Assembly: GCF_009914755.1 (NCBI RefSeq)
Contig: NC_060942.1
Reading direction: 5' to 3' (one strand)
Source: the human T2T-CHM13v2.0 reference genome, Homo sapiens
DNA: 64,000 bases
In this document: positions 1-52,650 of the stretch, one piece after another
Layout: the number at the start of each line of letters is the position of its first letter
Position numbering within the stretch: the first letter of the stretch is position 1
The notes under the pieces: generated by a model
Databases searched by the model: none
Told to the model about the DNA's origin: nothing
What the model saw: only the letters and a program-made list of their open reading frames with translations
Position numbers and translations under genes: made by a program

Positions 1-191
1 AGATTGATCATAACTTTTTTCCTGTAACACTTTGTTAAATGTAGCAAAACGAAGTCAACATATTTCAAAGTGTTGTTATATTTTTACTGCCTTCTAAAGC
101 CCCAAACTCCGTAGACTAGAATATGAGTTCCAGGTTATTGTAGATGACAGTTTAAACAGCTGTTTTGCTGTTGTTTAAGAATCACAAACTT

Positions 192-1140
<949 letters not shown>

Positions 1141-1744
1141 AAAGGTGTTACAAACATCCTCTATGCTTTTCTATGTGTAACTAGATATTTTAAGAGGCAG
1201 TTTGCCAATATATTTTAAATTTAAAATGAGCACCCAAATCAAGAATATTTACATCATGTTAATTGGGGTGGGCTGAGGTGGGGTACGGGATAAAATTGTT
1301 TCTATGCCAACTAGACCTAAAAAGATGTCATCACCTGAGGCCATTTACAAATGCAATATTTACAATATAAATTTCTATCAGTAGGAATTGCCAAATTAAC
1401 TAGTTAATTAAAATGGGACACCCAAATATGGATACTAAGCAGTATTTTAAAATAAGTACTTGTGTAATTAACATTAGGTATAATCACCTGTAGTTACAAA
1501 AAAGTTAATACAGTATAATGTAAACAGGATACTATATTTTATATATGTACAGGAAATTATGTGTCTAAGTTTTATATATATGTATCTCTGAAAACAAAAA
1601 ATTGTAAAATATTCTAAATAAGAAGGCAACATTGATTATTTCTAGAACTCTGTCTTAGGATGTCTTCTCTAGACTTATCTCAGTGGCTTAAACTGTTACT
1701 ACACAATGTATTCATAGATAAAGTATGTAGTTAAAAACATTTGA

Positions 1745-1990
1745 TAAGCAGGAACAGAAACCAAATATTGCATGTTCTCACATATAAGTGGAAGCTAAAC
1801 ATTGAGTACACATGGACACAAAGAAGGGAACAATAGACACCCTACTTGAGGGTGAGGATTAAAAAAAACTACCTGTCAGGTACTATGCCTGTTACCTGTG
1901 TGATGAAATAATCTGCAACCAAATCCCCACAACATGCGATTCGCCTATATAACAAACTGCACATGGACCCCTGAACATGAAGCAAAAGTT
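1745..1990 (+). mobile_element. L1 3' end (L1PA15/16-L1PB-like)
   Basis: CATGTTCTCACATATAAGTGGAAGCTAAACATTGAGTACACATGGACAC 3'UTR. Degenerate TSD TTAAAAACA(T/C)TT. Confidence 0.8.
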
Positions 1991-2049
1991 TAAAAACACT
2001 TCAGAACAAATATTTGTTTAAAATTACAATGAATAAATTGCATATTAAT

Positions 2050-2860
2050 GATTTTATTTCAGAAAAATCTGAGAAAATCTCTTAAAAATTAATTGGAACT
2101 GAGATTAAGGTAAAATATCTTGTTGTAAATTAAATATATATGAAAACAATAATTTCATCTACAATAAACATAAACAGAAAAGGTAGAAGATATTATAGCA
2201 TTAAGTTCCAATGGATAGTAATAATGAAAAAGATACAATACCTAGGGGAAAAAGGAAACATATGTATCTATATGGTAAAAATTGTAAAATACTTCTAATT
2301 TCTTGAATCAGAAAAAAATTCAAAAATGGAAGAAATATTCATAACATATTTGATGAAACATAGATTGCCCTAAAATATAGAGTTCTTACAAATCAATATG
2401 TAAGACTCAAATCTGTTTTTATACATATGATTTATTCCCAAAACAATAAATAAATGGTTTTTAATGTGCAAAAACATGCACAAATAGGCAAAAATTCAAA
2501 TAATAGCACATCATTTTTCACTGATTAAGATATTCGAACATTTTAAAGTGTTCAAAATTTTATAGCCCTTGGAGAAGGTACAAAAAAGCTGTGCACCAAT
2601 GTCCTGTTGGTGTGAAATGTGAGAAAGGCATACAACTTCTCAAGAGGAAATGTAATAGTAACTACCATAATTTCCATTACATATTCCCAATAAACTAGTT
2701 ATTCAATTTTTAGAAATCTATGTTATAGATGCTATAGTGCATGGACAGAAAAGTACAAATGCAAAGTATTTTTGTAGCATTATTTGTAATAAAAACAATC
2801 AATAAAAAAGGTAGACATTGATTAACATAGCATTAGTTAAATTATATACTTTAAGAAAAT
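2050..2860 (+). mobile_element. Highly decayed L1M (L1ME-like) fragments
   Basis: A-rich, with residual ORF2/3'UTR motifs (TTTTTAGAAATCTAT, GTAGCATTATTTGTAATA). Confidence 0.45.
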
Positions 2861-2893
2861 GGTATTTAAAATAAAATCAGGCTAAAAGTACGA

Positions 2894-2894
2894 G

Positions 2895-2945
<51 letters not shown>
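2894..2945. repeat. (GT)n microsatellite
   Basis: About 26 GT units with one interruption. Confidence 0.97.
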
Positions 2946-2946
<1 letters not shown>

Positions 2947-3256
2947 GTAAGGATGAATAAGAAATTCCAAAAAATGCTTTGGAATTGGGTCATTGGTGGG
3001 GCCCTGGAGTGGGATAACATTTGCCGTCGTACAACCGTTTGCATTGTTTGGAAAATGTAATTCAAAAATACTCAGACAAATCATTTTAGTTTTCACTCTG
3101 AGTTTATTCTATATGAACCATTTCAGTTTCCATATCAAGATTATTGTCAACTTTTAATGGTGGAATTTTAGGGCCTCAGTTATTACTTATCAATGGATTA
3201 GAATGGTCCCAATTATTTCTTAATGAGATTTATGAACAGGTTTACAGATATAGTCC

Positions 3257-3559
<303 letters not shown>

Positions 3560-3649
3560 TACAGATATATTCTTACATCCTAATTTCGATAATAGGTTAC
3601 TACTCCTATAACCAATTTCATTGTCATGTAGGAAAAAAATCAGATAGCG

Positions 3650-3890
3650 TGCACATTAAGAGTGTAGATTTATAGTCACATAGACTTGGATTGAATTCTA
3701 ACTCTGCTATTTTCTAGATGTGTGCTCTCTGTCAATTTTATATATATGAGAATAAACTTCTTCATCCATAAATTGGAAAAGTAGAATTTAACCTCATGCA
3801 ACTGTTGCAAATGATTCAATAGTACAATATATATACGGCACCAATTGTGGTACCCAACATTTTTAAGTATTCAATAAATGTACATTATTC
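3650..3890 (+). mobile_element. MIR
   Basis: GACTTGGATTGAATTCTAACTCTGC, TTCTTCATCCATAAATTGG and TATTCAATAAATG core motifs. Confidence 0.7.
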
Positions 3891-3907
3891 TTATCATTAT
3901 TCATTGT

Positions 3908-4438
3908 AAATAACTCCTGTTATCTGCTGGGAATATATTTCTAGACCCCCAGTGGATGCCTGAAACCAAAGACAGTACTGAACCTTATATACATTATGTT
4001 TTTTTCCTATACATATATAACAATTAATAAAGTTTTATTTATAGGTTGGGCACAGAAAGAAAATAACAACAGTAATAAAATGGAATAATTATAATAATAG
4101 ATTGTAATAAAAGTTATGTGAATGTGCTTCCTCTTTCTCTCTCTCAAAATTTCTTATTGTGCTCACCCTTCTTCTTGTTATCTACCAGTTTGATAACTGA
4201 GGGCTACTAATTGACAGACGGCACACACAGTGTGGATCCATTGGATAAAGGGCTGATGCACCTCTCAGGAGGGACAGAAAAGGACAGCGTGAGGTTTCAT
4301 CACACTACTCAGAATGGCATGCAATTTAACACGTGTGAATTGTTTATTTCTGTAAAATTTTATTAATATTTTCCACAGTAGAGCATGGGAAACTGAAACT
4401 ATAAGAAAGTAAAATGGGGAGTAAGGGGAAATTACTAT
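3908..4438 (+). mobile_element. MER44 (Tigger7-derived) DNA transposon
   Basis: GACCCCCAGTGGATGCCTGAAACC..AGTACTGAACC start, CACTACTCAGAATGGCATGCAATTTAA, degenerate terminal repeats. Confidence 0.8.
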
Positions 4439-5399
4439 ATTTTTCACACCTAATTTTGAACTCAGAAAGCTAAACCCCATGGAATTGAAAGGATGTAAAC
4501 ATCTCATGCCCATTGATATCCGCTGGCTTTCAGAACTCAGTTTGAACAACAAGGATTATGAATGACTACTTAAAATATCAGTACTTTATTTATTCCTTGA
4601 AACATGCCACAGAGGTAGCTTAGGGATCTCCACCAGAATATAAAAGAAAATTACTAGAAAATCCTGCCACACCTGCTTTTACCAAAATACTTATTTTATA
4701 TTTGCTTTCCATGTTGAAATAAATTTTATTTTACAAATGTATTATCAACAAAAATGAAAAATTTCAAAAGCACATTTTTTAATTTTCTCTCTTAATAAAA
4801 TTAAAGAAACAAAAGCATTGAAAGAATGCCCTAAAACAGATGTTTCATTTTATTAAATATTGTCTAATTTATGAGGGTCCTTAGAAATGATATTTTGTCT
4901 TACATGGGGAAGATATTAAAGCCTATGTTGAAGAATGCTGTAAAACCAGACATTTCCAAATCAGGAATAACTATGGATCTTCTGAGTTATGGACATGGGG
5001 ACTATGTAATGGGCACCATTTCCTTCTCCATATTGGCTTCCAGATAGGTGAAAGCCAACTTTGTGGCTCACAGCCCACTCAGAGCAAATGTGAAAGGTTC
5101 TTAAGAATTGAATTTTGTATTAGTCTCATTTTGGGATCCATTTTATGAGTCCCTAAGTTTATATTCCTTTTTCTTTTCCAACTACTTCTATTCTAGGACA
5201 TCTTAATGCATTTTATGTATCTATTCTTTTAAGAAATATGTATTGATCTTCCACTAATGGGCTAAGACCTGGGATGGATGCTTCACTCTGAGTAGAATGG
5301 ATTACAAAGTACATGACCTTGCCAATAGGAAATTTATATTCAATGCACACTCTCTTGTAAAAAGCAATCTACTAATTAATTACCTAATAAAAATTTATC

Positions 5400-6600
5400 A
5401 TGTTAGGCAAGGAGGGTAAATCCGCATCCAGCATAAGTGTCCATTCCACAGTCACCCTCATGATGGAAACAGTCTAACATAACGTGAAAACTATAAGGGA
5501 AAGAGGGCATATCAGACTCTCAGAGAATGGTCCCTTCCACTGGCAGACTGACACTGAGCACTGGCAGTAGTCAGATCAGCTTTGGAGATGAAAAGTCCAT
5601 GTGATGACATGAATGCTTAACATTCATGTCAAGTACCCTGTTAACTTTGTTTGTAAGCCAACTAGGAAAGCTGGAATGAAGGTGGATGCTAACTCTTGGC
5701 CATAGACAGAACTTGTCCACTTGATAATTATAAGCCTCATCTACCATAGCTGCTTTCTGTTGAGCTTTCATATGGAACACAAATATTTTCATACTCCTGG
5801 GACTCTTTAGTCCCAGTCTTAAAATCAGGGTAATTTAAGTCCATCTCCAACCACGGAAGTTATTAACCGCTACTTATGAGCCATGCCTCATGCCAGGGAA
5901 AGTAGACATTCAGATGTGCTGCTTGAAGCTTTGCCCATTGGAATGACAGTGTCCTGAGGTGGTACACCCTAAGGTTACCCCCATGAGTCATGCCCTTGTT
6001 TAAGCCCATCTGCTTGAGTGTGAGTAAAACCTGTGATTTTCTCTTAGCCCATATAATATGGTAAAAGTGGTAAGATACCACTAACATGATACATTATGTT
6101 GTATGAGACTGTGCCTTAGCAGACTGTAGTCTCTCCTGGACTTGAAGGAGTAAGATGATGTGATGCGACCTTTGTATGGTCAGAGACTGTGGATTGTCTC
6201 TAGTTGCTGAGGCTCTCAGTCCTAGAATTATAAGGAATTGAATTCTGGCAACAACTTGAAGAGCTTGGAATCAGGTTCTTCCCCATTCAAGCTCTTAGAC
6301 GAGAATGCAAGTTTACCAACACCTTGATGTCAGCTGATCTGGTTTGGCTGTCACAACTCACCATTTCTTCAGAACTTGCCAAGCTACTTCACATATATTT
6401 CACTTCCATTTGGAGGAAATTCACATAAATATGCCCAATTTTGTGGCTTAGCAGGTTAGGTCGAACCGATTTCATAGTAGTCAGCACAGTTTGCTGGGTT
6501 GCTTGGTGTCCCTGGCTCAGCCACTTAGCTTCTACTGACGTGCATCAGTGAACTGTGACCTGTGTATTGCCTGGGATTCTCCCATCAGGGCTGACCTCAC
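5400..6600 (-). mobile_element. ERVL-type internal pol remnant (RNase H/integrase), interrupted by an MLT1 LTR
   Basis: Translations KIFVFHMKAQQ..YNYQVDK and SFQWAKLQAAHL resemble ERVL pol (KIFVSHVNAHQ..FNNQVD; SQWAELRAVHL). Confidence 0.75.
5955..6335 (+). mobile_element. MLT1E/F-like LTR, 3'-truncated
   Basis: CCCCATGAGTCATGCCCTTG..TTGAGTGTG..CCTGTGA and AAGGAATTGAATTCTGGCAACAAC motifs. Confidence 0.7.
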
Positions 6601-6729: not shown

Positions 6730-7155
6730 TCAACCTTTTTCTCCAAAACTTTTGAATCCAATCATACAGACACTGAATGCGGCATGGCTTCTTTCAAGGT
6801 ATTTTCTATATAAGTTTTGAATTCAAATTGCTAACTCTTGATCACTGTACATGTCATTGTCTTCTTCCAATCTGTCTACAACACACCAGGCTTTCTTACA
6901 GACCTTAACTTAATATGAATTGGTTTGTGAATAAATAACAGAAACCCTGAACTACCCAAGCTATGGTAAATAGATTATGTTCTAGCCAATGATATCCATT
7001 GAATTGTTTAAATGTAACCAATATTTTGACATAAAAGCAACCAGTAACTATCCCTCACAAACTGCAAATGCATATGTGCATTTTCCCTACTCCACCACTC
7101 CCCAGTATAATTGACATAACAAAAGGGATAGTGTGAAGATAAATATACAATTGAA
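6730..7155 (-). pseudogene. Fossil terminal exon: 3 hydrophobic segments, then acidic and IQ-like tail
   Basis: Acceptor ttctaatactttcattgtttttag. Phase 1 reads IQLYIYLHTIPFVMSIILGSGGVGKMHICICSL*GIVTGCFYVKILVTFKQFNGYHWLEHNLFTIAWVVQGFCYLFTNQFILS*. After a frameshift: VKVCKKAWCVVDRLEEDNDMYSDQELAI*IQNLYRKYLERSHAAFSVCMIGFKSFGEKG*. Confidence 0.65.
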
Positions 7156-23351: not shown

Positions 23352-23426
23352 CTGAAATTAGAATAAGTATTGTCAAGCCAATAATTAGATCAACTCCCAA
23401 TCATGATGTGATGGGAAGAGAATCAC
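23352..23426 (-). pseudogene. Fossil exon with hydrophobic (signal or TM) segment
   Basis: Acceptor ttttgttattcttcag. Phase 1 reads DSLPITS*LGVDLIIGLTILILIS. An ATG at 23404 joins this frame with one 1-nt shift (MIGVDLIIGLTILILIS). Donor degenerate (CAG|ACAACT). Confidence 0.5.
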
Positions 23427-25804: not shown

Positions 25805-28590
<2,786 letters not shown>

Positions 28591-28659
28591 CCTGCCCCTA
28601 CTCCCACCCCCCACACATAAGCATTTTTGTCACTTTGTTATATGTATAAAAAGTAATAT

Positions 28660-30073: not shown

Positions 30074-30217
30074 CGGATGTGGCTACCTACTTATAAATAC
30101 AGCTGAGTCATCAGCAAAACACAGGTCCTTCCTTCCCTGACCTTTAAAATGATCATCCAAATGTAACTCACAAATTGCTCATGAGTGATGCTTTTACAGT
30201 ATGTTATTTATATTTTC
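30074..30217 (-). pseudogene. Candidate fossil exon (144 nt)
   Basis: Acceptor tttcccatcatctag, donor CCG|GTAAAA. Phase 0 reads ENINNIL*KHHS*AICELHLDDHFKGQGRKDLCFADDSAVFISR*PHP; frame ambiguous. Confidence 0.4.
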
Positions 30218-30673
30218 CTAGATGATGGGAAACACCATAAAATGTAAAACAGGAACTATCCAGGCTTTTTCTTTAAAATCTAAAAGTTAGCAAATAAACT
30301 TTAAAATGTAGGGAGATAGTGTCCTACAGAGATTGAATTTTTGATACATATGAGCCTCAAATTAAAGTATAACTCCACTAAGAACTCAGAGCTACTATAT
30401 ATTACTTATCTGCTCTCAGCCATAGTTGTTTCAAGATAAACAGGTGCACAATAATACCTACTTCAAGAATGTACTAGGAAGAACAAAAGTTATTATATAT
30501 AATATGTATAATACTACAGTGCCTAACAGATTTAAATAAAAATTCCCTATCCAATATTTAAAATGAAATTTCCTAAATTTGAGAAATGTTTTATATCTAG
30601 ATTAAAATGTGGATTCTTACAGTACTAAATACATTTCCAATGGCTTCAGAGAGCTCTTGGCAGGGTGACGTAC

Positions 30674-31051
30674 CATTCCACTGTTATTATCATAACATAA
30701 AAAACATTAGATGCACAAAATTAAAGTTCAGGTTAATCAAAATATTGCTTGACACAGCAAATAATTGAATTGCACTTGCAGTGCACTGTGGTAGACAGTA
30801 ATTAACATGCAGCATCTTCAAAATTTGAGTACAACTTCCAATTTCCATTTTAACGTTATAGAATGCTGTCTGCACATTTTTTAATGGTACCCATGATAAT
30901 AATATATTCTCTTTTTAATCATATTCCGCGTTGCAAGAAGTGAAGCTTGCAATTTTCCCAGGTGCTTACCAAATTACTACTGCAAGCTAATTCTCATCCC
31001 CTAAGTTAAGAGTTTCAACACAGTGCACATTAACAGCCTGCTTATGTTCTC
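30674..31051 (-). pseudogene. Fossil exon (378 nt, phase 1 start)
   Basis: Acceptor attaacttaccttctgttgtacag, donor ATG|GTACGT. (G)EHKQAVNVHCVETLNLGDEN*LAVVIW*APGKIASFTSCNAEYD*KENILLSWVPLKNVQTAFYNVKMEIGSCTQILKMLHVNYCLPQCTASAIQLFAVSSN... Confidence 0.6.
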
Positions 31052-31944
31052 CTGTACAACAGAAGGTAAGTTAATATGTGCCTCAATTATATCCAGTTTG
31101 TGCATTTATAGCACCCCGTGGGCAGCAGTAAGAAAGCTGTAAATGTACTTACCCCGTTTTTTAATGGTTTACTATATTACAGTAGAGAAAGACTGAGAAA
31201 GTGAAAAGGAAGAAGAAAAAAAGAAACGTCAGGAGAGCAATAGAAAAGGAAATAGAAGAAAATATGATTGAATGGGGAAATGATAAGAAATGCAAATTTA
31301 AAATGATTGATTTAAAAACTTTTTAATTAAATTCATAGCTATATCTCTAGCTACATGAATGAAAGACATGTATGTATGCCCAATTCTATACACATTTTAT
31401 TTTATGTATTTTTACTTAGTTTTAATGACATGGGGTTATAGAATATCTCCATTTATCAAGAATAGCTACACGTAAAATCACATGAGGAAAGATATATAGT
31501 ATTTACAAAGAAACAGTTCTTGGGACACTTTTAATCTGTATAGACCAATCCATGAATACCTATAAACTCAAGACAAATTTACTTTCCTTCACTTCTCATC
31601 AATGTTAAGTAGCCAAGTCAATTTGCAGTATGAAATGTAATTCACATTTTATCAATCGAAGATATTTAAAACATTGTCCCAAATATATGTATGAGTTATG
31701 AATTAGACTCTACAAGATAATGATCCAAAAATCTGCTTATAAATTACAAGTTTGAAACAACATTTACTCTATTTTTTTTCTTCTGGCATTCAATGTTGTT
31801 TAGCCTTATTGGCACAGTGAAATTTTAAAACAATGTAGACAGAAAGGTAATATCTGTAATGCATTATCTGATTACTTTCTGTTTTCGATATGTAAGAATA
31901 GTAGCAAATTTTTAAAAAGTGATTCATAAAGCTTATAATTATTT

Positions 31945-32140
31945 TTAAAAATTTTTATTAATACATAATTGTAAATATTTAGGTAGTAAATGTGATATTT
32001 TGATTCATGCATATAGTGCATAATGATCAAATCAGAGTAATTAGTAATCAAATCATCACCTTAAATATTTGTCATAGATTTCTGAAGGAAACATTCCAAA
32101 TATTCTCTTCCAGTTATTTTGAAATATACGACAAGTTATA
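31945..32140 (-). mobile_element. L1MA 3' end
   Basis: TGTGATATTTTGA..TAATGATCAAATCAG..TATTTTGAAATATAC. Confidence 0.75.
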
Positions 32141-32643
32141 TTATCATATTCTTAATGCTAACCTTTAGACATCTAAGAATAAAATCATAGACAGTTAACA
32201 AAAGAATTTGTAAGTTAAAAATATTGAATATATATTCAAGTTTAATGGAATTATTACCATTATTACCTTTCCAAGACTATTTAAAAAGTTACAATTGTTT
32301 GCCTAAATATCAATTTATGGGTCATTTTTTAATTTTTACATTACCACAGGAAAAACAAGAACTACAGACATAATAATGTAAACAATCAGTGTTTAAATTC
32401 TTCTTCTATTCAAAAAACTTCCTTGGGTTTCTTTTTCTTTTCTTTCATGCTCAAAGTGACACAACTTGAAAAACTTTCTCCTCTTTTCTATTAGCTTAAG
32501 GGTATTTTTCAATTCTGATGTTGATCAGGGACAAGATCAAACCATGCTTTTTGATTCTGTTTATGCACACAGAACTTGTTATTCATTGCCTTTGAAATTC
32601 TATGGGTCTGAGTGGCTCTGCAGCAGAGTAGTGGACAACTCAC

Positions 32644-32731
32644 CGCATAATAGCAACGCCCACAGAACAGAAGACAGGCTGGAAATGCTCGAGAGGCGAA
32701 CTAACTTCCTGTTTACCAAATTATAAACCAT
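32644..32731 (-). pseudogene. Fossil first coding exon, signal peptide-like
   Basis: MVYNLVNRKLVRLSSISSLSSVLWALLLC(G). Consensus donor GCG|GTGAGT in phase 1, matching the phase-1 exon at 31051. Confidence 0.58.
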
Positions 32732-36890: not shown

Positions 36891-39144
36891 GATGGACCCA
36901 CATAGATATTTCAATAATTAATATATTTTAAACTAACACGTGTCTAAATCTTTAATTTCAGATGGGCAATTTGATGGACAGATATTCATTTTCCTCATTT
37001 TGGTAAGATTTATTCCCATATTTTTAAGTTTAAAAAATACTTGAACATATTATTTCAGCTTCCACAGAAGCAACATTATGTTATCAATTTTAATAAACAT
37101 ATCATACATGCTTACATAGGTATACACAAACACATTTTCATGAATCATCCAAACATTTATCTATTTATCAGTTTATTCAACAGTTGCTATTAAGAACCTA
37201 CTATGCTAATGATAATACTTTTCAAAATGCTTCAACCTTTTTACATACCTAATGTAGAAGTGATTGGCAAATATCCTGTGTCCTTTATACTAAAACACGA
37301 ACATTTCAGTTCTAGAAAAGCTTATCCTACAGAAAAATTTGCCTTCTGTTTCATAGGATGAAAATGACTCTATATTACTCATCTTTGTATCATTTGAAAT
37401 GACTACCATCATTCTTTACATATACCCAGTTCAATAAATGTGCTGAATTTAATCTACTATTTTTTTATCTTAGCTGTCAAAAATAAAGGAAAAAAATGAC
37501 TGAATGAAAGTGCTATCTATTCATTCTGTTTTATCTTGAATTTTCATATTTTACTTTACTTTTGTTAAGATAAAGCAAATGTTTGGAAGCAGACAAAATA
37601 TAAATTATATATAGCCTATGACATTCTTCTAGAATCATTACCTTATTATACTAAGTTGTTACCAATAAAGCACCTATATTTAATTGCATTATATATTTTT
37701 GAGGCAACATTCTCTTCTAACCAAAAAACCCATGATAATAACAAAACAAAATAATAAAAAGTAATAATGTAATAATTCTTTGACTCAATAACTCATTCCT
37801 TCTCTCTTCATTTCACCTAATCTACAAACTTTAAAAAGTGAATTCAAATGAGATTTTTATCTTAGATACAGTGCCATGCATGCCATGACTTCAAGTATTG
37901 GTTTTCTTTAAAATCTTCCAATATATTTGACTATTAAAATGAAATTACATTTAAGCTACGGAATGCACAATAATTTTATTACTTCCAGGATCTCTAATTT
38001 TCAGATAGAGCTTAATTCTTATCTTATTTTAACCAACTTTTGTGTGGTGTTGGATAGAACTGGAGAATCTGTATAAATGAAAAAATTTAACTCTCTGTCA
38101 CTGCCTGATATGGCTTGGCTGTGTCCCTACCCAAATCTCATCTTGAATTGTAGTTCCCATAATTCCCACATGTCATGGGAGGGACCTGGTGGGAGGTAAT
38201 TGAATCAAGTGGGCAGTTACCCTCATGCTGTTCTCCTGAAAGTGAGTTCTCACAGGATCTGATGGTTTTATAGGTGGCTTTTCCCCCTTTTGCTCATCAC
38301 TTTTCCTTGCTGCCTCCATGTAGAGGACGTGTTTGCTTCCCCTTCTGCCATGACTGTAAGTTTTCGGGGGCCTACACAGCCAAGCTGAACTGTAAGTCAA
38401 TTAAATTTATTTATTTTATAAATTACCCAGTCTTCAGTATGTCTTTATTAGCAGCATGAAAATGGATTAATACAATAAATTGGTATTGGGAGTATTGGGG
38501 CATGCTGTAAAGATACACCAAAATGTGGAAGCAACATTGAAACTGGGTAACAGGTAGAGATTAAAACAGTTTGGAGGGCTCAGAAGAAGATAGGAAAATG
38601 TGGGAAATGTTGGAATGTCCTATAGACATGGAGGAAGATGTGGGAAAGTTTGCAACTTTCTAGAGACCTGTTGAATGGCTTTGACCAAAATGCTGATAGT
38701 AATATGGACAATGAAATCCAGGCTGAGGTGGTCTAAGATGGAGATAAGGAACTTCTTGGGAAGTGGAGAAAATATTACTTTTTAAAATTGTATGCTTTAG
38801 CAAAGACACTGGGAGCATTTTGCCCCTGCCCTAGACATCTGTGAAACTTTGAACCTGAGAGAGATAATTTAGGGTATCTGGTGGAAGATATTTCTAAGCA
38901 GCAAAGCATTCAAGGGGTGACAGAGCTTGAATGTTTGGAAAATTTGCAGGTCGATCATGCAGTAGAAAAGAAAACCCTGTTTTCTGGGAAGAAATTCAAG
39001 CCCACTGCAGAAATTTGCAAGAATAGTGAGGAATCAAATGCTAATTGCCAAGACAATGGGGGAAAATGTCTCCAGGGCATGTCTGAGACCTTCCTGGCAG
39101 CCCCTCCCATTACAGGCCCAGAGCTGTAGGAGGAAAAAATGGTT

Positions 39145-39312
39145 TTATCTCTATCTCTGTTTATCTCTGTATTTATATTTATCTCTATCTCTATGTATCT
39201 CTATCTCTATATTTATCCCTCTATGTATCTCTATCTCTTTATCTCTATCTCTATATTTATCCCTCTATTTATCTCTATATTTATCTCTATTTCTATATTT
39301 ACTTATCTCTAC
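39145..39312. repeat. (TCTATC/TTTATC)n low-complexity repeat
   Basis: Direct reading. Confidence 0.9.
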
Positions 39313-39314
39313 AT

Positions 39315-39877
39315 CTTCCTGGGAACCTTTTTTATGACCCTGGGTAGAGCTCAGCAATCCACCCTTTAAGCTTCAGCAAGAGACAAAACAGGGACCCCAG
39401 GAACTCACCGGAACTAATAGGTACAGACAGGGACAGATAGGGATAGATGAAGACTAACAGTATAAGGTCAGTGCCCTAAAGAGGTACTGGTCAGTGGCCT
39501 AAAGAGGTACAAAAGCAAAGACCGGCAATGTAAGGTCATGATTTACAGCTGTGATGGTTTAGCATTTACATGGCCAATTCTAAGACACAATCAATCTAGG
39601 AGCCTGGGAGGGCTAGAAACAAGGAGCCAGCAAGTCTAGACACATTCCAGAGCCATGAGCCCTGGATTTTATCCAAGCCGCGAGTGGTTTTATGCCCTGG
39701 GCTTATATTATGGTATGTCAGGGTAGCCTTCCACCCTTTAGCACAGAGCCTGGTGGTCCAAAGGCTAGAAGGGGTTTTAGACCTTGGACCCCGGACATGT
39801 TCCAAGACTCTTTTACATTATGTCAGACGTGCAAGCCCTACCTCAGCTTCTCCCAACACTCAGCTTTTCTCCCAACA
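39315..39877 (-). mobile_element. ERV LTR (family uncertain, possibly ERVK-class) nested in THE1
   Basis: Minus-strand start TGTTGGGAGAAAAGCTGAGTGTTGGGAG with internal direct repeats; not THE1 sequence. Confidence 0.65.
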
Positions 39878-40685
39878 TTAAGAATTAATTAGTGCTCTAT
39901 TGGATTTCAGACTTGTGTGGGGCTGTAGCTCCTTCATTTTGGTCAACTTTTTCCATCTAGAATGAGAGTATTTTCCCGATACCTGTACCCCCATTGTATC
40001 TGGGAGGTAACTAGCTTACTTTTGATTTTGCAGGCTCATAGGAAAAGGAACTTTCCTTGTATTAAATGACACCTTGGACTTGGACTTTTGGGTTAATGCT
40101 GGAATGAGTTAAGATTTGGGGGGACTGTTGGGAGGGCATGATTGTGTTTTGAAATGTGAGGACATGAGATTTAGGAGGGGCTGCGGGGCTGTGATATGGT
40201 TTGGCTGTGTCCCCACCCAAATCTCATCTTGAATTGTAGTTGCTGTAATCCCCACATGTCATGGGAAGGACCTGGTGGGAGGTAATTTAATCACAGGGGA
40301 GGTTACCCTCATGTTGTTCTTGTGACAGTGAGTGAGTTCTCACAAGATCTGATGGTTTTATAAGAGGCTTTTCCCCCTTTTGCTCAGCAGTTCTTGCTCC
40401 CACCATATGAAGAAGGATGTGTTTGCTTCCCCTTCTGCTAGGATTGTAAGTTTCCTGAGGACTACACAGTCATGCTGAACTGTGAGTCAATTAAAACTCT
40501 CCTTTCTAAATTACCCAGTCTCGGGTATGTCTTTATCAGCAGTGTGAGAACAAACCGGTACACTGCCACATCATCTATTGTTGATACAGAAAAAATATAT
40601 TCATAAGAAACCTTCACCAATTAAAAAATTATTTTATGGCACTGAGCTCTGAACTTCTACAGCCAGAAATCTCAGAAAAATATTG

Positions 40686-40711: not shown

Positions 40712-42411
40712 GAGATGGTGCTAAGAAATTTCTGGGTACATGTAAATAAAGCAAATTAAATATGTTTTTCCTATCATCAGTTTTGTGTCTAAACATATCT
40801 GGGTATAAAAACTATTATTTAGTTGGATTAAAAAGAAGGAAAAATATAGGGGGAGAAAGAATGAATCATTATGTAACTTATATTACCAAAAGAGCTGTCC
40901 TTTCTGAGAATAAAAATATGTTTTCTATCATATGTAAATCCTCTTTCTCCAGTAGCTGTCTAACTCTACTATAAAGCAAAGAAACAGTAAACCCACTTAA
41001 TTTCCCATAGAAACAGGAGCCATAGTCAATCTTGTTCATAGAGTTAACCTCATATTTTATCTGGCTTCCTTTGTGAGGTTGATTTCTTTTTTGTGACATC
41101 ACAATAATTTCTCATCCTATGGTAAGCTATAATGATGATAATATAAAAATTGAATAAAAATATACCATAGGAATATTCTAAACGGAATTATTTTTCAGTT
41201 TCCTGGGAGATGTCAACACTAGGTCTTTAAAACAGCATTTTATAATGTCAAAAAGAGTTTTTCATACTAGTTTTGCCAAGGAGTAGCATTAAAAAAACAA
41301 ATTAAAAATTTATGCCGAGCGAGAAAATACTTTTGAATTGTAACTGTGTCACTGAGTTGTGCCAGTGCATGAATCTGTTTGTCAGCCAAAACAAAGTGAA
41401 ACAAAACAAAATATTATTTTTACTACTCGCTTCTTGATTTCTGCTTAAGGTGCTGATGAAATAATTGCTAACTTTTGATCATATCTGCGTTTTTCAGGAA
41501 ATGAGTATTTTAACAGGAAAAATCCTTTCTATTAACACAATAAATGATCATTGTGACAGTCCTGGGATTTTGCTACTCTTATTATTTTGTAGATTTAAAA
41601 TGGACCTACATTTCTGATTAATTGTTGTGTTTTACTGTGTCATTTAGACACTCTGCATATTGTTACTCATTGTCAGAATAAAAATTAGTCATTCCTTATT
41701 ATCAGAATAAAAACTAGAAATCTAAATCATCTTTTCCACTTCAAAAGACTCAATGGAATGACATGCTACCGAAATATTTCTTTATATTAGAAAACTAGCA
41801 AAGGAGACATCAAATTTGTCAGCAAAACTGCAGATATGACTCTATCAATAATCCGTGGTACTTTTGTATTCCCCATCTGAGGCTATTATATAGCTTTGGA
41901 TGACAGCCTGCTTCGACTTCATCGTATGATCCACTGGGACAGAAACTCATAACTGGCTTTCGACATAGAGCCTTCGTATAAAGCATAATAGCCACAGCCA
42001 GTCAGTATAGGGGGATTATAAGAGTACGGCAATGAACACAAAAGTTTGGGGAAAAGCAGTTTAACAGAAAACCTGACAAAAAAAAAAAAGCCCGGAAGGA
42101 CGGCTCCTTAAATGTTAAAGGCAGGAAAGGAATGGGCATTTTAAAGTCATGCTTTGGATGATTTGAAAATTGTGTTCTTTTAGGAGCTGCAGCTATTCAT
42201 TTTAAATTGCTCCACACAATCTCCAAACACCTTCCCCACACAGACACACATACAGACTCACCAAGGATGACAAGAGTGTTCTCAAAACAGGCCACCCAAC
42301 AGCACTAGAGGGTCATTGCTTCTAAATACACAGTTTACTACATTTACCTCTCATAATTATAATTTACTGCTTTCAGGATCTCTCAAGAAGAGCTCCAAGG
42401 GGTTGTTGAGA

Positions 42412-48185: not shown

Positions 48186-50830
48186 GGCTGGGTGTGGTGG
48201 CTCACACCTGTAATCCCAACAATTTGGGAGGCCAAGGCGGGTGGATCACTTGAGCTCAGGAGTTTGAGACCAGACTGGGGAACGCAGCAAGACCCCATGT
48301 CTACAAAAAAATATATAAACATTTAGCCAGGACTGGTGGTTCAGCTTGTAGTCCCAGCTACTTGGGAGGTTAAGGCTGGAGGTTAAGACAGGATGATTGC
48401 TTGAACCTAGGAGGTTGAGGTTGCAGTGTGTTATGATCATGCTGTATTAGTCCATATTCATGCTGCATAAAGACATATCCGAGACTGGGCAATTTACAAA
48501 AGAAAGAGGTGTATTGGACTTACAATTCCACGTGGCTGGGGAGGCCTCTTAATCATGGCAGAAGGTGAAAGACACGTCTCACATGGTGGTGGCGAGAGAA
48601 TGAGAGCCAAGCAAAACGGGTTTCCACTTATCAAACCATCATATCTTGTGAGACTTATTCACTGCCACGAGAACAATATGGGGGAACTACCACCATGATT
48701 CAATTATCTCCCACCGGTTATCTCTTGCAATATATAGGAATTTGGGGAGTACAATTTACGATGAGATTTGGGTGGGGACACAGGCCATATCCATATCATT
48801 CCACCTCGACCTCTCCCAAGCCAAACCATATCATTCCACCTCGACCTCTCCCAAGTCTCATGTCCTCACATTTCAAAGCCAAACATGCCTTCCCAACAGT
48901 CCCCCAAAGTCTTAACTCATTTCAACATTAACTCAAAAGTCCACAGTCCAAACTCTCATCTGAGAGTTTCTTCCACTTATGATCCTGTAAAATCAAAAGC
49001 AAGTTAGTTACTTCCTAGATACAATGGAGGTACAGGCATTGCATAAACACAGCTATACCAAATGGGAAAAAATGGCCAAAACAAAGTGGTTACAGGCCCC
49101 ATGCAAGTCTGAAATCCAGCACGGCAGTCTAATTTCAAAGTTCCAAAATGATCTTCTCTAACTCCATGTCTCGCAACTGGGTCACACTGATGCAATAGGT
49201 GAGATCCCATGGTCTTGGGAAGATCCTCTCCTGTGTCTTTGCAAGGTACAGCTTCCCTCCCTGCTGCTTTCATGTGCTGGCATTGGGTGTCTGTTGATTT
49301 TCCAGGTGCATGGTGCAAGATGTCATTGGATCTGTCTTTCCGGGGTGTGGAGGACAGTGACCCTCTTCTCACAGCTGCACTAGGTGGTTTCCTATTAGGG
49401 ACTCTGTGTGGGGGCTCCCACCCCACATTTCCTTCCTGCACTGCCTCAGCAGAGGTTCTCCATGAGGACCCTGCCCCTACAGCAAACTGCTGCCTGGGCA
49501 TCCAGGCATTACCATACATCTTCTGAAATCTAGGCAGAGGTTCCCAAACCCCACTTCTTGACTTCTATGCACTTGCAGGCTTAACACCACATGGGAGCTG
49601 CCAAGGCTTGGGGCTTACACACTCTGAAGCCACGGCCCGAGCTCTATGCTGACCCCTTTCAGACATGGCTAGAGCAGATAGGACCCAGGGTACCAAGTCC
49701 CTAGGCTGCATATGACATGGGGAACCAGGACCTGGCCCATGAAACCAGTTTCTCCGAGGCTTCTGGGCCTTTGATGGGAGGGGCTGCTGTGAAGACCTCT
49801 GACATGCTCTGGAGACGTTTTTTCCAATGTCTTGGGAGTTAACATTTGGCTCCTTGTTACTTATGCAAATTTTTGCAGCTGGCTAGAAATCTCAGAAAAT
49901 GGGTTTCTCTTTTCTATCACATTGTCAGTCTGTAAATTTTCTGAACTTTTATGCTCTGCTTCCCTTTTAAAACTGAATGTCTTTAACTGCACCCAAGTCA
50001 CCTCTTTAATGCTTTGCTGCTGGGAAATTTCTCTCCCAGATACCCTAAATCATCTCTGTCAAGTTCACAGTTCCACAAATCTCTAGGGCAGTGGTAAAAT
50101 GCCACCAGTCTCTTTGCTAAAACATTACAGGAGTCACCTTTGCTCTAGTTCCCAACAAGTTCCTCATTTCCATCTGAGACGACCTCAGCCTGGACCTTAT
50201 TGTCCATATCGCTATCAGGCTTTTGGTCAAAGCCATTCAACATTCCTGTCTTCTTCTGAGCCCTCCAAACTATTCCAACCTCTGCCTGTTACCCAGTTCC
50301 AAAGTTGCTTCCACATTTTAGGGTACCTTTTCAGCAGCACCCCACTCTACTGGTACCAATTTATTATATTAGTCTGTTTTCAAGCTGCTGAGAAAGATAT
50401 AACCAAGACTGGGTTATTTACAAAAGAAAGAGGTTTATTAGACTTACAGTTCCACATGGCTTGGCAGGAGGGCACCTCACAATCATGGTGGAAGGTGAAA
50501 GACACATCTCACATGGTGGCAGCAAATGAGAGAATGAGAGCCAAGCAAAATGGATTTCCCCTTTTCAAACCATCAGATATCATGAGACTTATTCACTACC
50601 GTGAGAACAGTGTGAGGGAAACTGCCTCCATGATTCAATTATCTCCCACCGGGTCCCTCCCACAACATGTGGGAATTATGGGAATACTATTCAAGATGAG
50701 ATTTGGAGAGGGACACGGGGAACACAGAGCCAAACCATATCATATGCCATTGCACTCCAGCCAGGGTGACAGAGTAAGACCCTATCTCAAAAAAGAAAAA
50801 AAGACAAAGACTAAAAGAAAAAAGGAAGAG
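48186..50830 (+). mobile_element. AluJ split by THE1 (48186-48442 and 50748-50830)
   Basis: Alu stops at TATGATCATGC and resumes at CATTGCACTCCAGCC. Confidence 0.9.
48443..50742 (-). mobile_element. THE1A/B provirus (LTRs 48443-~48798 and ~50365-50742)
   Basis: TGTATTAGTCC..CCATATCA LTRs, MaLR internal region, TSD CATGC/TATGC. Confidence 0.93.
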
Positions 50831-50849
50831 AGAGACAGACACAGAAAGA

Positions 50850-52650
50850 GAACTACAATCTAAGGTCACTGCTCAGCAAGTTGATGGAGTCACAAAGCAG
50901 TCACTCAGAGAGACATGGGACTTGGAAATTCCAAGTACAATTTTAAAAACAAACAACAGAAACCATTAGGCTGAATACAAGGGTTTAAATTGAAATTCTG
51001 GTAGTTAAAAAGTCACATAATTTCTAATCCAACATAGAAAATTGAAAATTCTTTTCTTAAGAAATTTAAATAAATACTGGAGTTACAAGATCTTTTCACT
51101 TTGGAAATTAGCGATTGCACATCCAAATAGCTGTATCCTCACTCACATGGTCAAGAACAATGATCACCAGTCCGCAAGCCCCATGGATTTTCATAGCTAT
51201 TGTTCTAGTCTTCAGCAGAAAGAATCAAGCCGGACATTGCCAGAGATTCAAGATCTTTGAGCAAAGCACTGAACATAAAATAAAGAGATAAATCAACAAA
51301 ATAAATAAACTAATGAGTGGAATCATAGACAGGTTCAGAAATTGAAGGAAAAATGTAACATTAACAGACTAGAGGTTAAAATAAAAAATAGAAACACCAA
51401 AAATAAGGAGGGACACACACATTTAAAATATGGTAGTTAAAATTAAATGTATTGGATTTTTATTTTAGGTTAACTTTAAAAGTTTAACACAAGGTCCCAG
51501 AAAGTGAGACTCAGAGAGAGAGGAAAGAGTGCTTGTTCGTGGACACAGAAAGCTGATCTCCCATAATATTTATGAGAAAAAAAGATTAATGGATTTAAAT
51601 AATTTATTTTACAGGACATTTAGAAAGAGACAGTAAAGAGAAGGGGGAAATTTATTAAATAAATTAGAAAATTAACAGGACCGTTTCTAGATGTGACTGG
51701 CCTTGATCTGCAGATAAGAGAGTCACATGTGCCCAGAGCAAAAAATAAAAAATCAAACACACAAAAAATTTCTTGTCTATTTCAGTATGTTTTCATAACA
51801 CCAAAAATAAAGAGAAAATCTTAAAGCCTTTTAAAACAACAACGATGACAACAGTAAGTAATAACAGCAATAACAAATAAATATACGACCAAGAAAGATG
51901 TGAGTCAAGGAAATATCAGACTTCTCACCGATGACATGGAATGCTGAAAGACAGTGAATAGATTCCCTTAATTTAGTGAAGACAAAAGTAATAAACTGTA
52001 ATTGTATGCTCAGCCACACCATCAGGGAAATGTTAGTACAGAATAAAAAATATCAGGTGTACAAGAAAAATAAAAGTACTTGCACTGATTTTTAAGGAAG
52101 TTTATTAAGAATATATAAAGCAGAAACAAAATATCAATAAAAAGATGAAAATATTGAACAAACATCAAGAGCACAATGAAGAAAAGGGCAAGGATAATAG
52201 CTAGGTAGGAGGACTTGAGAAAAAAACACAATTGGAAAAGAAAATGTCAAGTATTGGAGAAAAAAAGACATTTGGAAGCTTTACAAATATCAGAAAGAAA
52301 AAAATGTGATAATAGTAGATTGCTTGTCTCTGCAGTAAATGAGATTCACAGTAAAACAGATTGCAATTTTTAAAATTTCAATCCTAAGAATTCACTTGCA
52401 GATAAAATTTAAATTTTATTAACTTTGACATTATAAAACTAAAAGTGTAAATGAGAGAGGTTGAGAGATCAAAGTCAGAGAGAAGAGTTGGAAGAAAGAG
52501 CAAGAACACCAACATTTTCTAAAATGGAGACTCAAGAGATCAAGAGAGTAGCTATGTTATGCAAAAAGGAACAAGGGTATGATATATTACTTGAAGTTAT
52601 AATGAATAGAGAAACTAAAACCAGTGCAACTAGTATATGCTGCATCATTA
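50850..52650 (+). mobile_element. Decayed L1M 5'/ORF1 region
   Basis: A-rich; ATCAGACTTCTCACCGATGACATGGAATGCTGAAAGACAGTG ORF1 motif. Confidence 0.55.

What the first reader, a model, noticed from the sequence alone, without database searches (positions are those of the whole stretch)
30074..32731. Upstream signal-peptide module: second fossil gene or N-terminus of the same one
Seen: ATG at 32731 opens MVYNLVNRKLVRLSSISSLSSVLWALLLC and ends at a perfect phase-1 donor GCG|GTGAGT. The next exon (31051-30674, 378 nt) starts in phase 1 after a strong branch point and acceptor, and has 3 stops in its first 120 codons with spaced Cys and Trp. A 144-nt candidate exon follows (30217-30074). Established: a signal-peptide exon ending in phase 1 followed by a 300-400 nt exon is typical of Ig-superfamily and other extracellular-module genes. 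Inference: the hydrophobic exon at 23426-23352 is either this protein's TM helix (one long gene) or the signal peptide of a separate downstream gene starting at ATG 23404.
Basis: partly seen in the sequence, partly recalled or inferred. Interest (0 to 1): 0.7.

Follow-up and report, generated by a model that had tools for sequence, protein, structure and literature searches.

The report
Gene-shaped stretch without a relative
A single-copy stretch of a human chromosome 18 gene desert has good splice signals and a short hydrophobic reading frame, but no related protein was found, so it is likely chance gene-like DNA, with a smaller chance of being the relic of a long-lost receptor gene.

Summary
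The two main exon-like pieces are there: an open 29-codon frame (32731-32644) ending at a strong phase-1 donor, and a 378-nt piece (31051-30674) with a good branch point, acceptor and donor. The coding case is weak. Exon 2 holds 6 stops, and 5.5% of GC-matched frames in the window are as open as its first 119 codons. Its residue make-up is ordinary. Exon 3 has 7 stops in the continuing frame. ATG 23404 stops after four codons, and the 23426 piece has no GT donor. Searches of 1.8 and 5.8 billion proteins found no relative of exon 2. The larger search also found none for three downstream frames, while a control exon (CD58) found mammals down to 50% identity. IgV, CD2/SLAM, class II cytokine receptor and SEFIR profiles were negative; FN3 gave a faint hint. 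The exon pair is rare at thresholds fitted to it (2 of 100 simulated strands) but common at thresholds that real CD2 passes (40 of 100). Simulation shows the blank search argues against a recent gene loss, not an old one. Verdict: chance 0.55, non-coding spliced RNA 0.25, old fossil receptor gene 0.2. If a fossil, one gene is likelier than two.

The parts
32644..32731 (-). Candidate exon 1: ATG, 29 open codons with a short hydrophobic end, strong phase-1 donor; 4 CpG in 88 nt
   Evidence: best signal-peptide-like phase-1 exon on either strand of the window; CpG o/e 0.94 against 0.19 for the window
32704..32712 (-). ACAGGAAGT, an ETS-like site (label recalled) inside candidate exon 1
   Evidence: 1 match in the window; 46 of 100 shuffles have at least one
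31923..32154. Interspersed repeat fragment in candidate intron 1 (L1 3' end by recall; family not named by any search)
   Evidence: 39 of the 40 scored matches fall here, 75-80% identity
31070..31076 (-). Branch-point-like TATTAAC, branch A about 20 nt before the acceptor
   Evidence: Sequence
30674..31051 (-). Candidate exon 2: 378 nt, phase 1/1, 6 stops in 125 codons, no homolog found
30074..30217 (-). Candidate exon 3: 144 nt, 7 stops in the continuing frame; unsupported
23352..23426 (-). Hydrophobic piece after a strong acceptor; one stop, no GT donor; ATG 23404 out of frame

Best explanation
This is likely neutral, single-copy, AT-rich gene-desert DNA in which splice-like motifs and a short hydrophobic frame fall in gene-like order by chance. 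How it would arise (inferred): T-rich DNA supplies pyrimidine tracts before AG, and T-rich codons give Leu, Phe, Ile and Val, so acceptors and 'signal peptide' or 'TM' runs appear often. A reader who picks the best donor, acceptor and frame in 64 kb can assemble a two-exon model. Shown: the motifs, the stops, the lack of homologs in the tested frames and the background rates. Inferred: that nothing was ever encoded.
For: HMMER over 1.84 billion representatives gave 2 hits, both repeat proteins. For the better one the best single stretch is 9.3 bits and the 45 bits are summed over 9 stretches. The word-based search of 220-2000 aa proteins scored 0 of 47 candidates at E<=0.1, and 0 of 251 at E<=10 for a mixed profile of three downstream frames. 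The CD58 control found 17 of 79 candidates, down to 50% identity. 5.5% of 4763 overlapping GC-matched frames have 3 stops or fewer. Residue make-up of exon 2 (-0.127) is reached by 35% of those frames, while 8 of 8 real exons scored 0.02 to 0.26 after 20% substitution (these controls were in the training set). Exon 3 is stop-rich. At thresholds that the real CD2 exon pair passes, 40 of 100 simulated strands hold a pair. AlphaFold2 on the single sequence gave pLDDT 33 (weak evidence without an alignment).
Against: At thresholds near the feature's own values only 2 of 100 simulated 64-kb strands hold such a pair, and 408 kb of real DNA held one other pair, built on the real SLAMF9 first exon. 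All three proposed donors contain a CpG, against 30 of 371 donor-like sites in the window (noticed after the fact). Exon 1 is CpG-rich. A 20-sequence human FN3 profile gives exon 2 2.8 bits, reached by fewer than 5 of 1000 shuffles, third among distinct regions of the window. The blank search has little power for an old loss.
Confidence: 0.55

Rival explanations
1. Exons 1 and 2 would be the 5' end of an unannotated non-coding spliced RNA. Exon 1 would be a weak, partly unmethylated first exon whose donor splices to the acceptor at 31051; the reading frame would be incidental.
For: Strong donor, branch point and acceptor. CpG excess in exon 1 and in the donors. ETS-like site. Slight T-over-A excess on the minus strand in 6 of 6 blocks, 0.018-0.057 (only the longest repeats masked). 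No protein homolog is needed.
Against: No gene or lncRNA in RefSeq for the window (hub annotation). No chr18 row with a coordinate starting 7004-7009 in the conserved human lncRNA table of PMC5577775 (the hg19 position rests on a recalled offset). No expression data here. The ETS-like 9-mer occurs in 46 of 100 shuffles of the window.
Confidence: 0.25
2. Exons 1 and 2 would be the relic of one lost single-pass receptor gene: signal peptide, an FN3-like or Ig-like outer domain, and the 23426 piece as an internal TM exon. It would have died early, before most living mammals split, and decayed neutrally since.
For: Order, strand and phase 1/1 fit. Faint FN3 likeness at residues 47-68, overlapping the stretch matched by a bacterial repeat protein with Ig-like Pfam hits. 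The 23426 piece starts at a strong acceptor, as an internal exon would. Simulated decay of 0.15-0.2 substitutions per site leaves 3 stops or fewer in 30-37% of runs and is detected in only 0-9 of 25. A degraded distant IgV control was also missed by the frameshift-aware test.
Against: No homolog in any library. A loss within 0.06 substitutions per site would be detected in 11-21 of 25 simulations, yet intact CpG-bearing donors point to a recent loss, not an old one (inference). Exon 3 is stop-rich and the TM piece lacks a donor. Composition is ordinary. The locus is not among the chr18 entries seen in published loss lists.
Confidence: 0.17
3. There would be two separate fossil genes: a short secreted protein from exons 1-3, and a second gene starting at ATG 23404.
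For: About 6.6 kb separate exon 3 from 23426. The hydrophobic run after 23404 has signal-peptide length.
Against: ATG 23404 stops after four codons and is out of frame with the run; the piece has an upstream acceptor and no donor. The length-free HMMER search found no short relative of exon 2. No homolog for the downstream frames.
Confidence: 0.03

Closest known systems
Unitary pseudogenes such as ACYL3 on chr18 (PMC2864566, PMC2134963; passages seen)
   Same: Single-copy, exon-like pieces with stops in an unannotated stretch.
   Different: ACYL3 aligns to an intact gene in mouse, dog and rhesus; here no living ortholog was found.
lncRNAs derived from genes with lost coding potential (PMC5577775; passages and supplements seen)
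   Same: Could keep splice sites while the protein likeness fades; the paper reports significant sequence similarity in only about 20% of such pairs above background.
   Different: No transcript is annotated here, and CBLN2, NETO1, SOCS6 and GTSCR1 occur 0 times in its 4 supplements.
Signal exon + one-domain exon genes of the CD2/SLAM and V-set families
   Same: Short phase-1 first exon followed by a 300-400 nt phase 1/1 exon (CD2 pair recovered).
   Different: No profile match: 0.8 bits, reached by about 5-10% of shuffles; frameshift-aware scores at background.
Fibronectin type III repeats
   Same: A short stretch (residues 47-68) lines up with profile positions 15-37.
   Different: 2.8 bits only, about a quarter of the domain; no Pfam fn3 hit; not among the 150 scored matches in the genome.

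Membership tests
Unitary pseudogene | An intact ortholog in another species | tested here: not met
   blank; control positive; power good only for recent loss
Unitary pseudogene | Syntenic alignment with codon-type conservation | not testable with these tools
   No other vertebrate genome is held
Unitary pseudogene | No functional paralog in the same genome | tested here: met
   Best non-self match E 0.07; DNA single-copy; also expected for non-genic DNA
Unitary pseudogene | Disabled but recognisable multi-exon frame | tested here: inconclusive
   Exon 1-2 phases fit; exon 3 and the 23426 piece do not hold up
Ig superfamily V-set | B-strand Cys, C-strand Trp and F-strand motif scoring on a V-set profile | tested here: inconclusive
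   0.3 bits against background 0.4 +/- 1.7, but degraded distant controls were missed too; no Pfam hit
CD2/SLAM V domain | Match to a profile of 12 human family exons | tested here: not met
   degraded in-family controls kept 23-36 bits
FN3 domain | Profile match over the seven-strand domain | tested here: inconclusive
   22-residue partial match, 2.8 bits
Class II cytokine receptor domain 1 | Match to profiles of the two half-domain exons | tested here: not met
   1.4 bits, about 5% of shuffles; second half no hit
IL-17 receptor (SEFIR), for the downstream frame 6951-6730 | SEFIR profile or pairwise match | tested here: not met
   179-250 of 1000 shuffles reach the IL17RD score
Signal peptide (exon 1) | n/h/c regions and cleavage site by SignalP | not testable with these tools
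   Only hydropathy computed: best 10-residue mean 2.25
Spliced lncRNA | Transcript evidence across the junction | not testable with these tools
   No expression data; no Rfam match

The most novel reading that the evidence does not exclude
An unannotated unitary pseudogene between SOCS6 and CBLN2: the last trace of a vertebrate single-pass receptor with an FN3-like outer domain, lost early in mammals, spanning exons 32731 to 23352 or beyond as one gene.
Probability: 0.17. Interest if true: 0.55.

Novelty: not a real feature. Interest (0 to 1): 0.18.

Why it matters
As it stands it is a calibration case: exon-shaped signals in AT-rich human DNA can look like a receptor gene and still have no relative. 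If the fossil reading held, it would add an unknown lost receptor to the 18q22.3 gene desert and point to a living gene in other vertebrates that could be studied.

Tried and rejected
CD2/SLAM V domain, seen by eye: rejected. General V-set, also with frameshifts: no signal, test weak. Class II cytokine receptor: rejected. SEFIR for the downstream frame: rejected. The bacterial hit P0002 and the repeat hit P0003: set aside as scores summed over repeats. An IgV-like snippet upstream of ATG 32731 (E 1.5): not significant. An L2 origin for the DNA upstream of exon 1, recalled by eye: not confirmed. Single-sequence fold: pLDDT 33, so no fold search was run. Atlas look-up of the 103-aa frame 16598-16290: best feature score 0.88, a lead only. 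One search used a wrong frame and was repeated as (self match only). Pfam on three minus-strand frames of window 1-6450 and of the 10 kb below the window: 0 of 24. Rfam: 0. The bacterial promoter scan does not apply. Seven literature searches listed no paper on this locus. Not run: the 69-219 aa length class for exon 2 in the word-based search; only one search covers it. Earlier scan findings were not available.

Full report
What is there. On the minus strand, ATG 32731 opens 29 codons ending at GCG|GTGAGT in phase 1. A 378-nt piece at 31051-30674 follows 1.6 kb later, with a branch-point-like TATTAAC, a good acceptor and the donor ATG|GTACGT. On a rough weight matrix with recalled frequencies these sites rank 11 of 3388, 36 of 4037 and 86 of 3388. 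The DNA of exons 1-3 has no second copy in the genome search; only intron 1 carries a repeat fragment.

Exon 2 has 6 stops, three in a row near its end. The chosen 119 codons give p 0.025 and the whole exon 0.21, and 5.5% of 4763 overlapping GC-matched frames have 3 stops or fewer. Exon 3 has 7 stops in 47 codons in the continuing frame, against 3.1 expected. ATG 23404 stops after four codons and is out of frame with the hydrophobic run; that piece has a strong acceptor but an in-frame stop and no GT donor.

Is the layout more than chance? Exon 1 is the window's best signal-peptide-like phase-1 exon, and exon 2 its best 280-420 nt phase 1/1 exon. A pair detector set near their own values fired on 2 of 100 simulated 64-kb strands. 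Set loosely enough to catch the real CD2 pair, it fired on 40 of 100, and on many non-gene strands of real DNA. All three proposed donors hold a CpG, against 30 of 371 donor-like sites, and exon 1 has CpG o/e 0.94. These points favour something real, but the thresholds and the CpG test were chosen after seeing the sequence.

Homology. Exon 2, read with X at stops, found nothing in Pfam, and in PDB one match at E 0.29 in another frame. HMMER over 1.84 billion representatives gave two repeat proteins. For the better one, a bacterial protein with Ig-like Pfam hits, no single stretch exceeds 9.3 bits. The word-based search of 220-2000 aa proteins scored 0 of 47 candidates. A mixed profile of three downstream frames (6951-6733, 16980-16834, 16598-16290) scored 0 of 251. 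Simulation showed that profile detects the first and third frames alone at 55-65% identity, but not the second. The control, the human CD58 V exon, returned 17 proteins from RefSeq, UniRef and other sources down to 50% identity, so vertebrate proteins are in the larger library; that the representative library holds them too is inferred.

Families tried. Profiles built from human exons gave no support for CD2/SLAM, class II cytokine receptors or, downstream, SEFIR. The V-set test was blank but could not see degraded distant controls either. FN3 gave 2.8 bits over 22 residues, reached by fewer than 5 of 1000 shuffles; after four families tried on exon 2 this is a hint only. Residue make-up of the exon 2 frame is ordinary for the window, unlike real exons after 20% substitution; its first 85 residues do better (top 5.5%).

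Power of the blank. With real exons decayed neutrally in simulation, a living ortholog was detected in 11-21 of 25 runs at 0.03-0.06 substitutions per site, 6-14 at 0.10, 0-9 at 0.15-0.2 and 0-1 at 0.3. So a recent loss is unlikely and an old one is not excluded. An old loss sits badly with intact CpG-bearing donors (inference from CpG hypermutability, established knowledge).

Print. Seven searches listed no paper on this locus. In PMC6886504, supplement S1 has 13 chr18 rows, none near hg38 72.4 Mb; S6 is held only in its first half and I saw 6 of 11 coordinate-like matches, none at this locus. PMC2864566 and PMC2134963 (passages) list ACYL3 and SERPINB11 on chr18. PMC7555810 (text search) has no chr18 mention. 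PMC10195156 (supplement) has one chr18 row, at 35.3 Mb. PMC5577775 (passages, 4 supplements) names none of the four flanking genes searched; its list of lost genes has only species columns in the head row seen and could not be checked by position. PMC11050503 (one table passage) lists only named chicken genes for the region. PMC7519119 (passages) was not relevant. The hg38 and hg19 positions rest on recalled offsets. Unseen supplements may bear on this.

Verdict. Most likely chance gene-like sequence (0.55). An unannotated non-coding spliced RNA (0.25) and an old fossil receptor gene (0.2 in all) remain open.

Noticed in passing
window 16598-16290 (-): 103 open codons in 32% GC single-copy DNA; the Atlas holds it from residue 18 (perhaps from human DNA), no family, paralog or homolog found.
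   Followed up: yes
window 6951-6730 (-): 73-codon frame with 2 stops and protein-like make-up (top 3%); weak IQ-motif score E 0.06; SEFIR rejected; acceptor poor.
   Followed up: yes
window 16982-16834 (-): 49 open codons after a fair acceptor, ending in a T run where a donor would be; no family found; poorly covered.
   Followed up: partly
window 33446-30073 (-): Five CpG-bearing donor-like sites cluster in 3.4 kb (33446, 32838, 32643, 30673, 30073), out of 22 on the minus strand.
   Followed up: no
window 33100-32740: Looks by eye like an old L2 fragment (recalled); not confirmed by genome search or by 295 kb of held DNA.
   Followed up: partly
window 48022-47414 (-): Stop-poor unmasked frame, 1 stop in 200 codons, containing a 169-aa open stretch; not examined.
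   Followed up: no
window 42196-41837 (-): Unmasked stretch with a CpG cluster at 41884-42005 and 1 stop in 120 codons; possibly a regulatory or conserved element.
   Followed up: no
window 26100-28600, 38100-40600, 48500-50900: Long unmasked or partly masked stretches that look like MaLR-type LTR elements (label recalled) and account for many of the long open frames.
   Followed up: no
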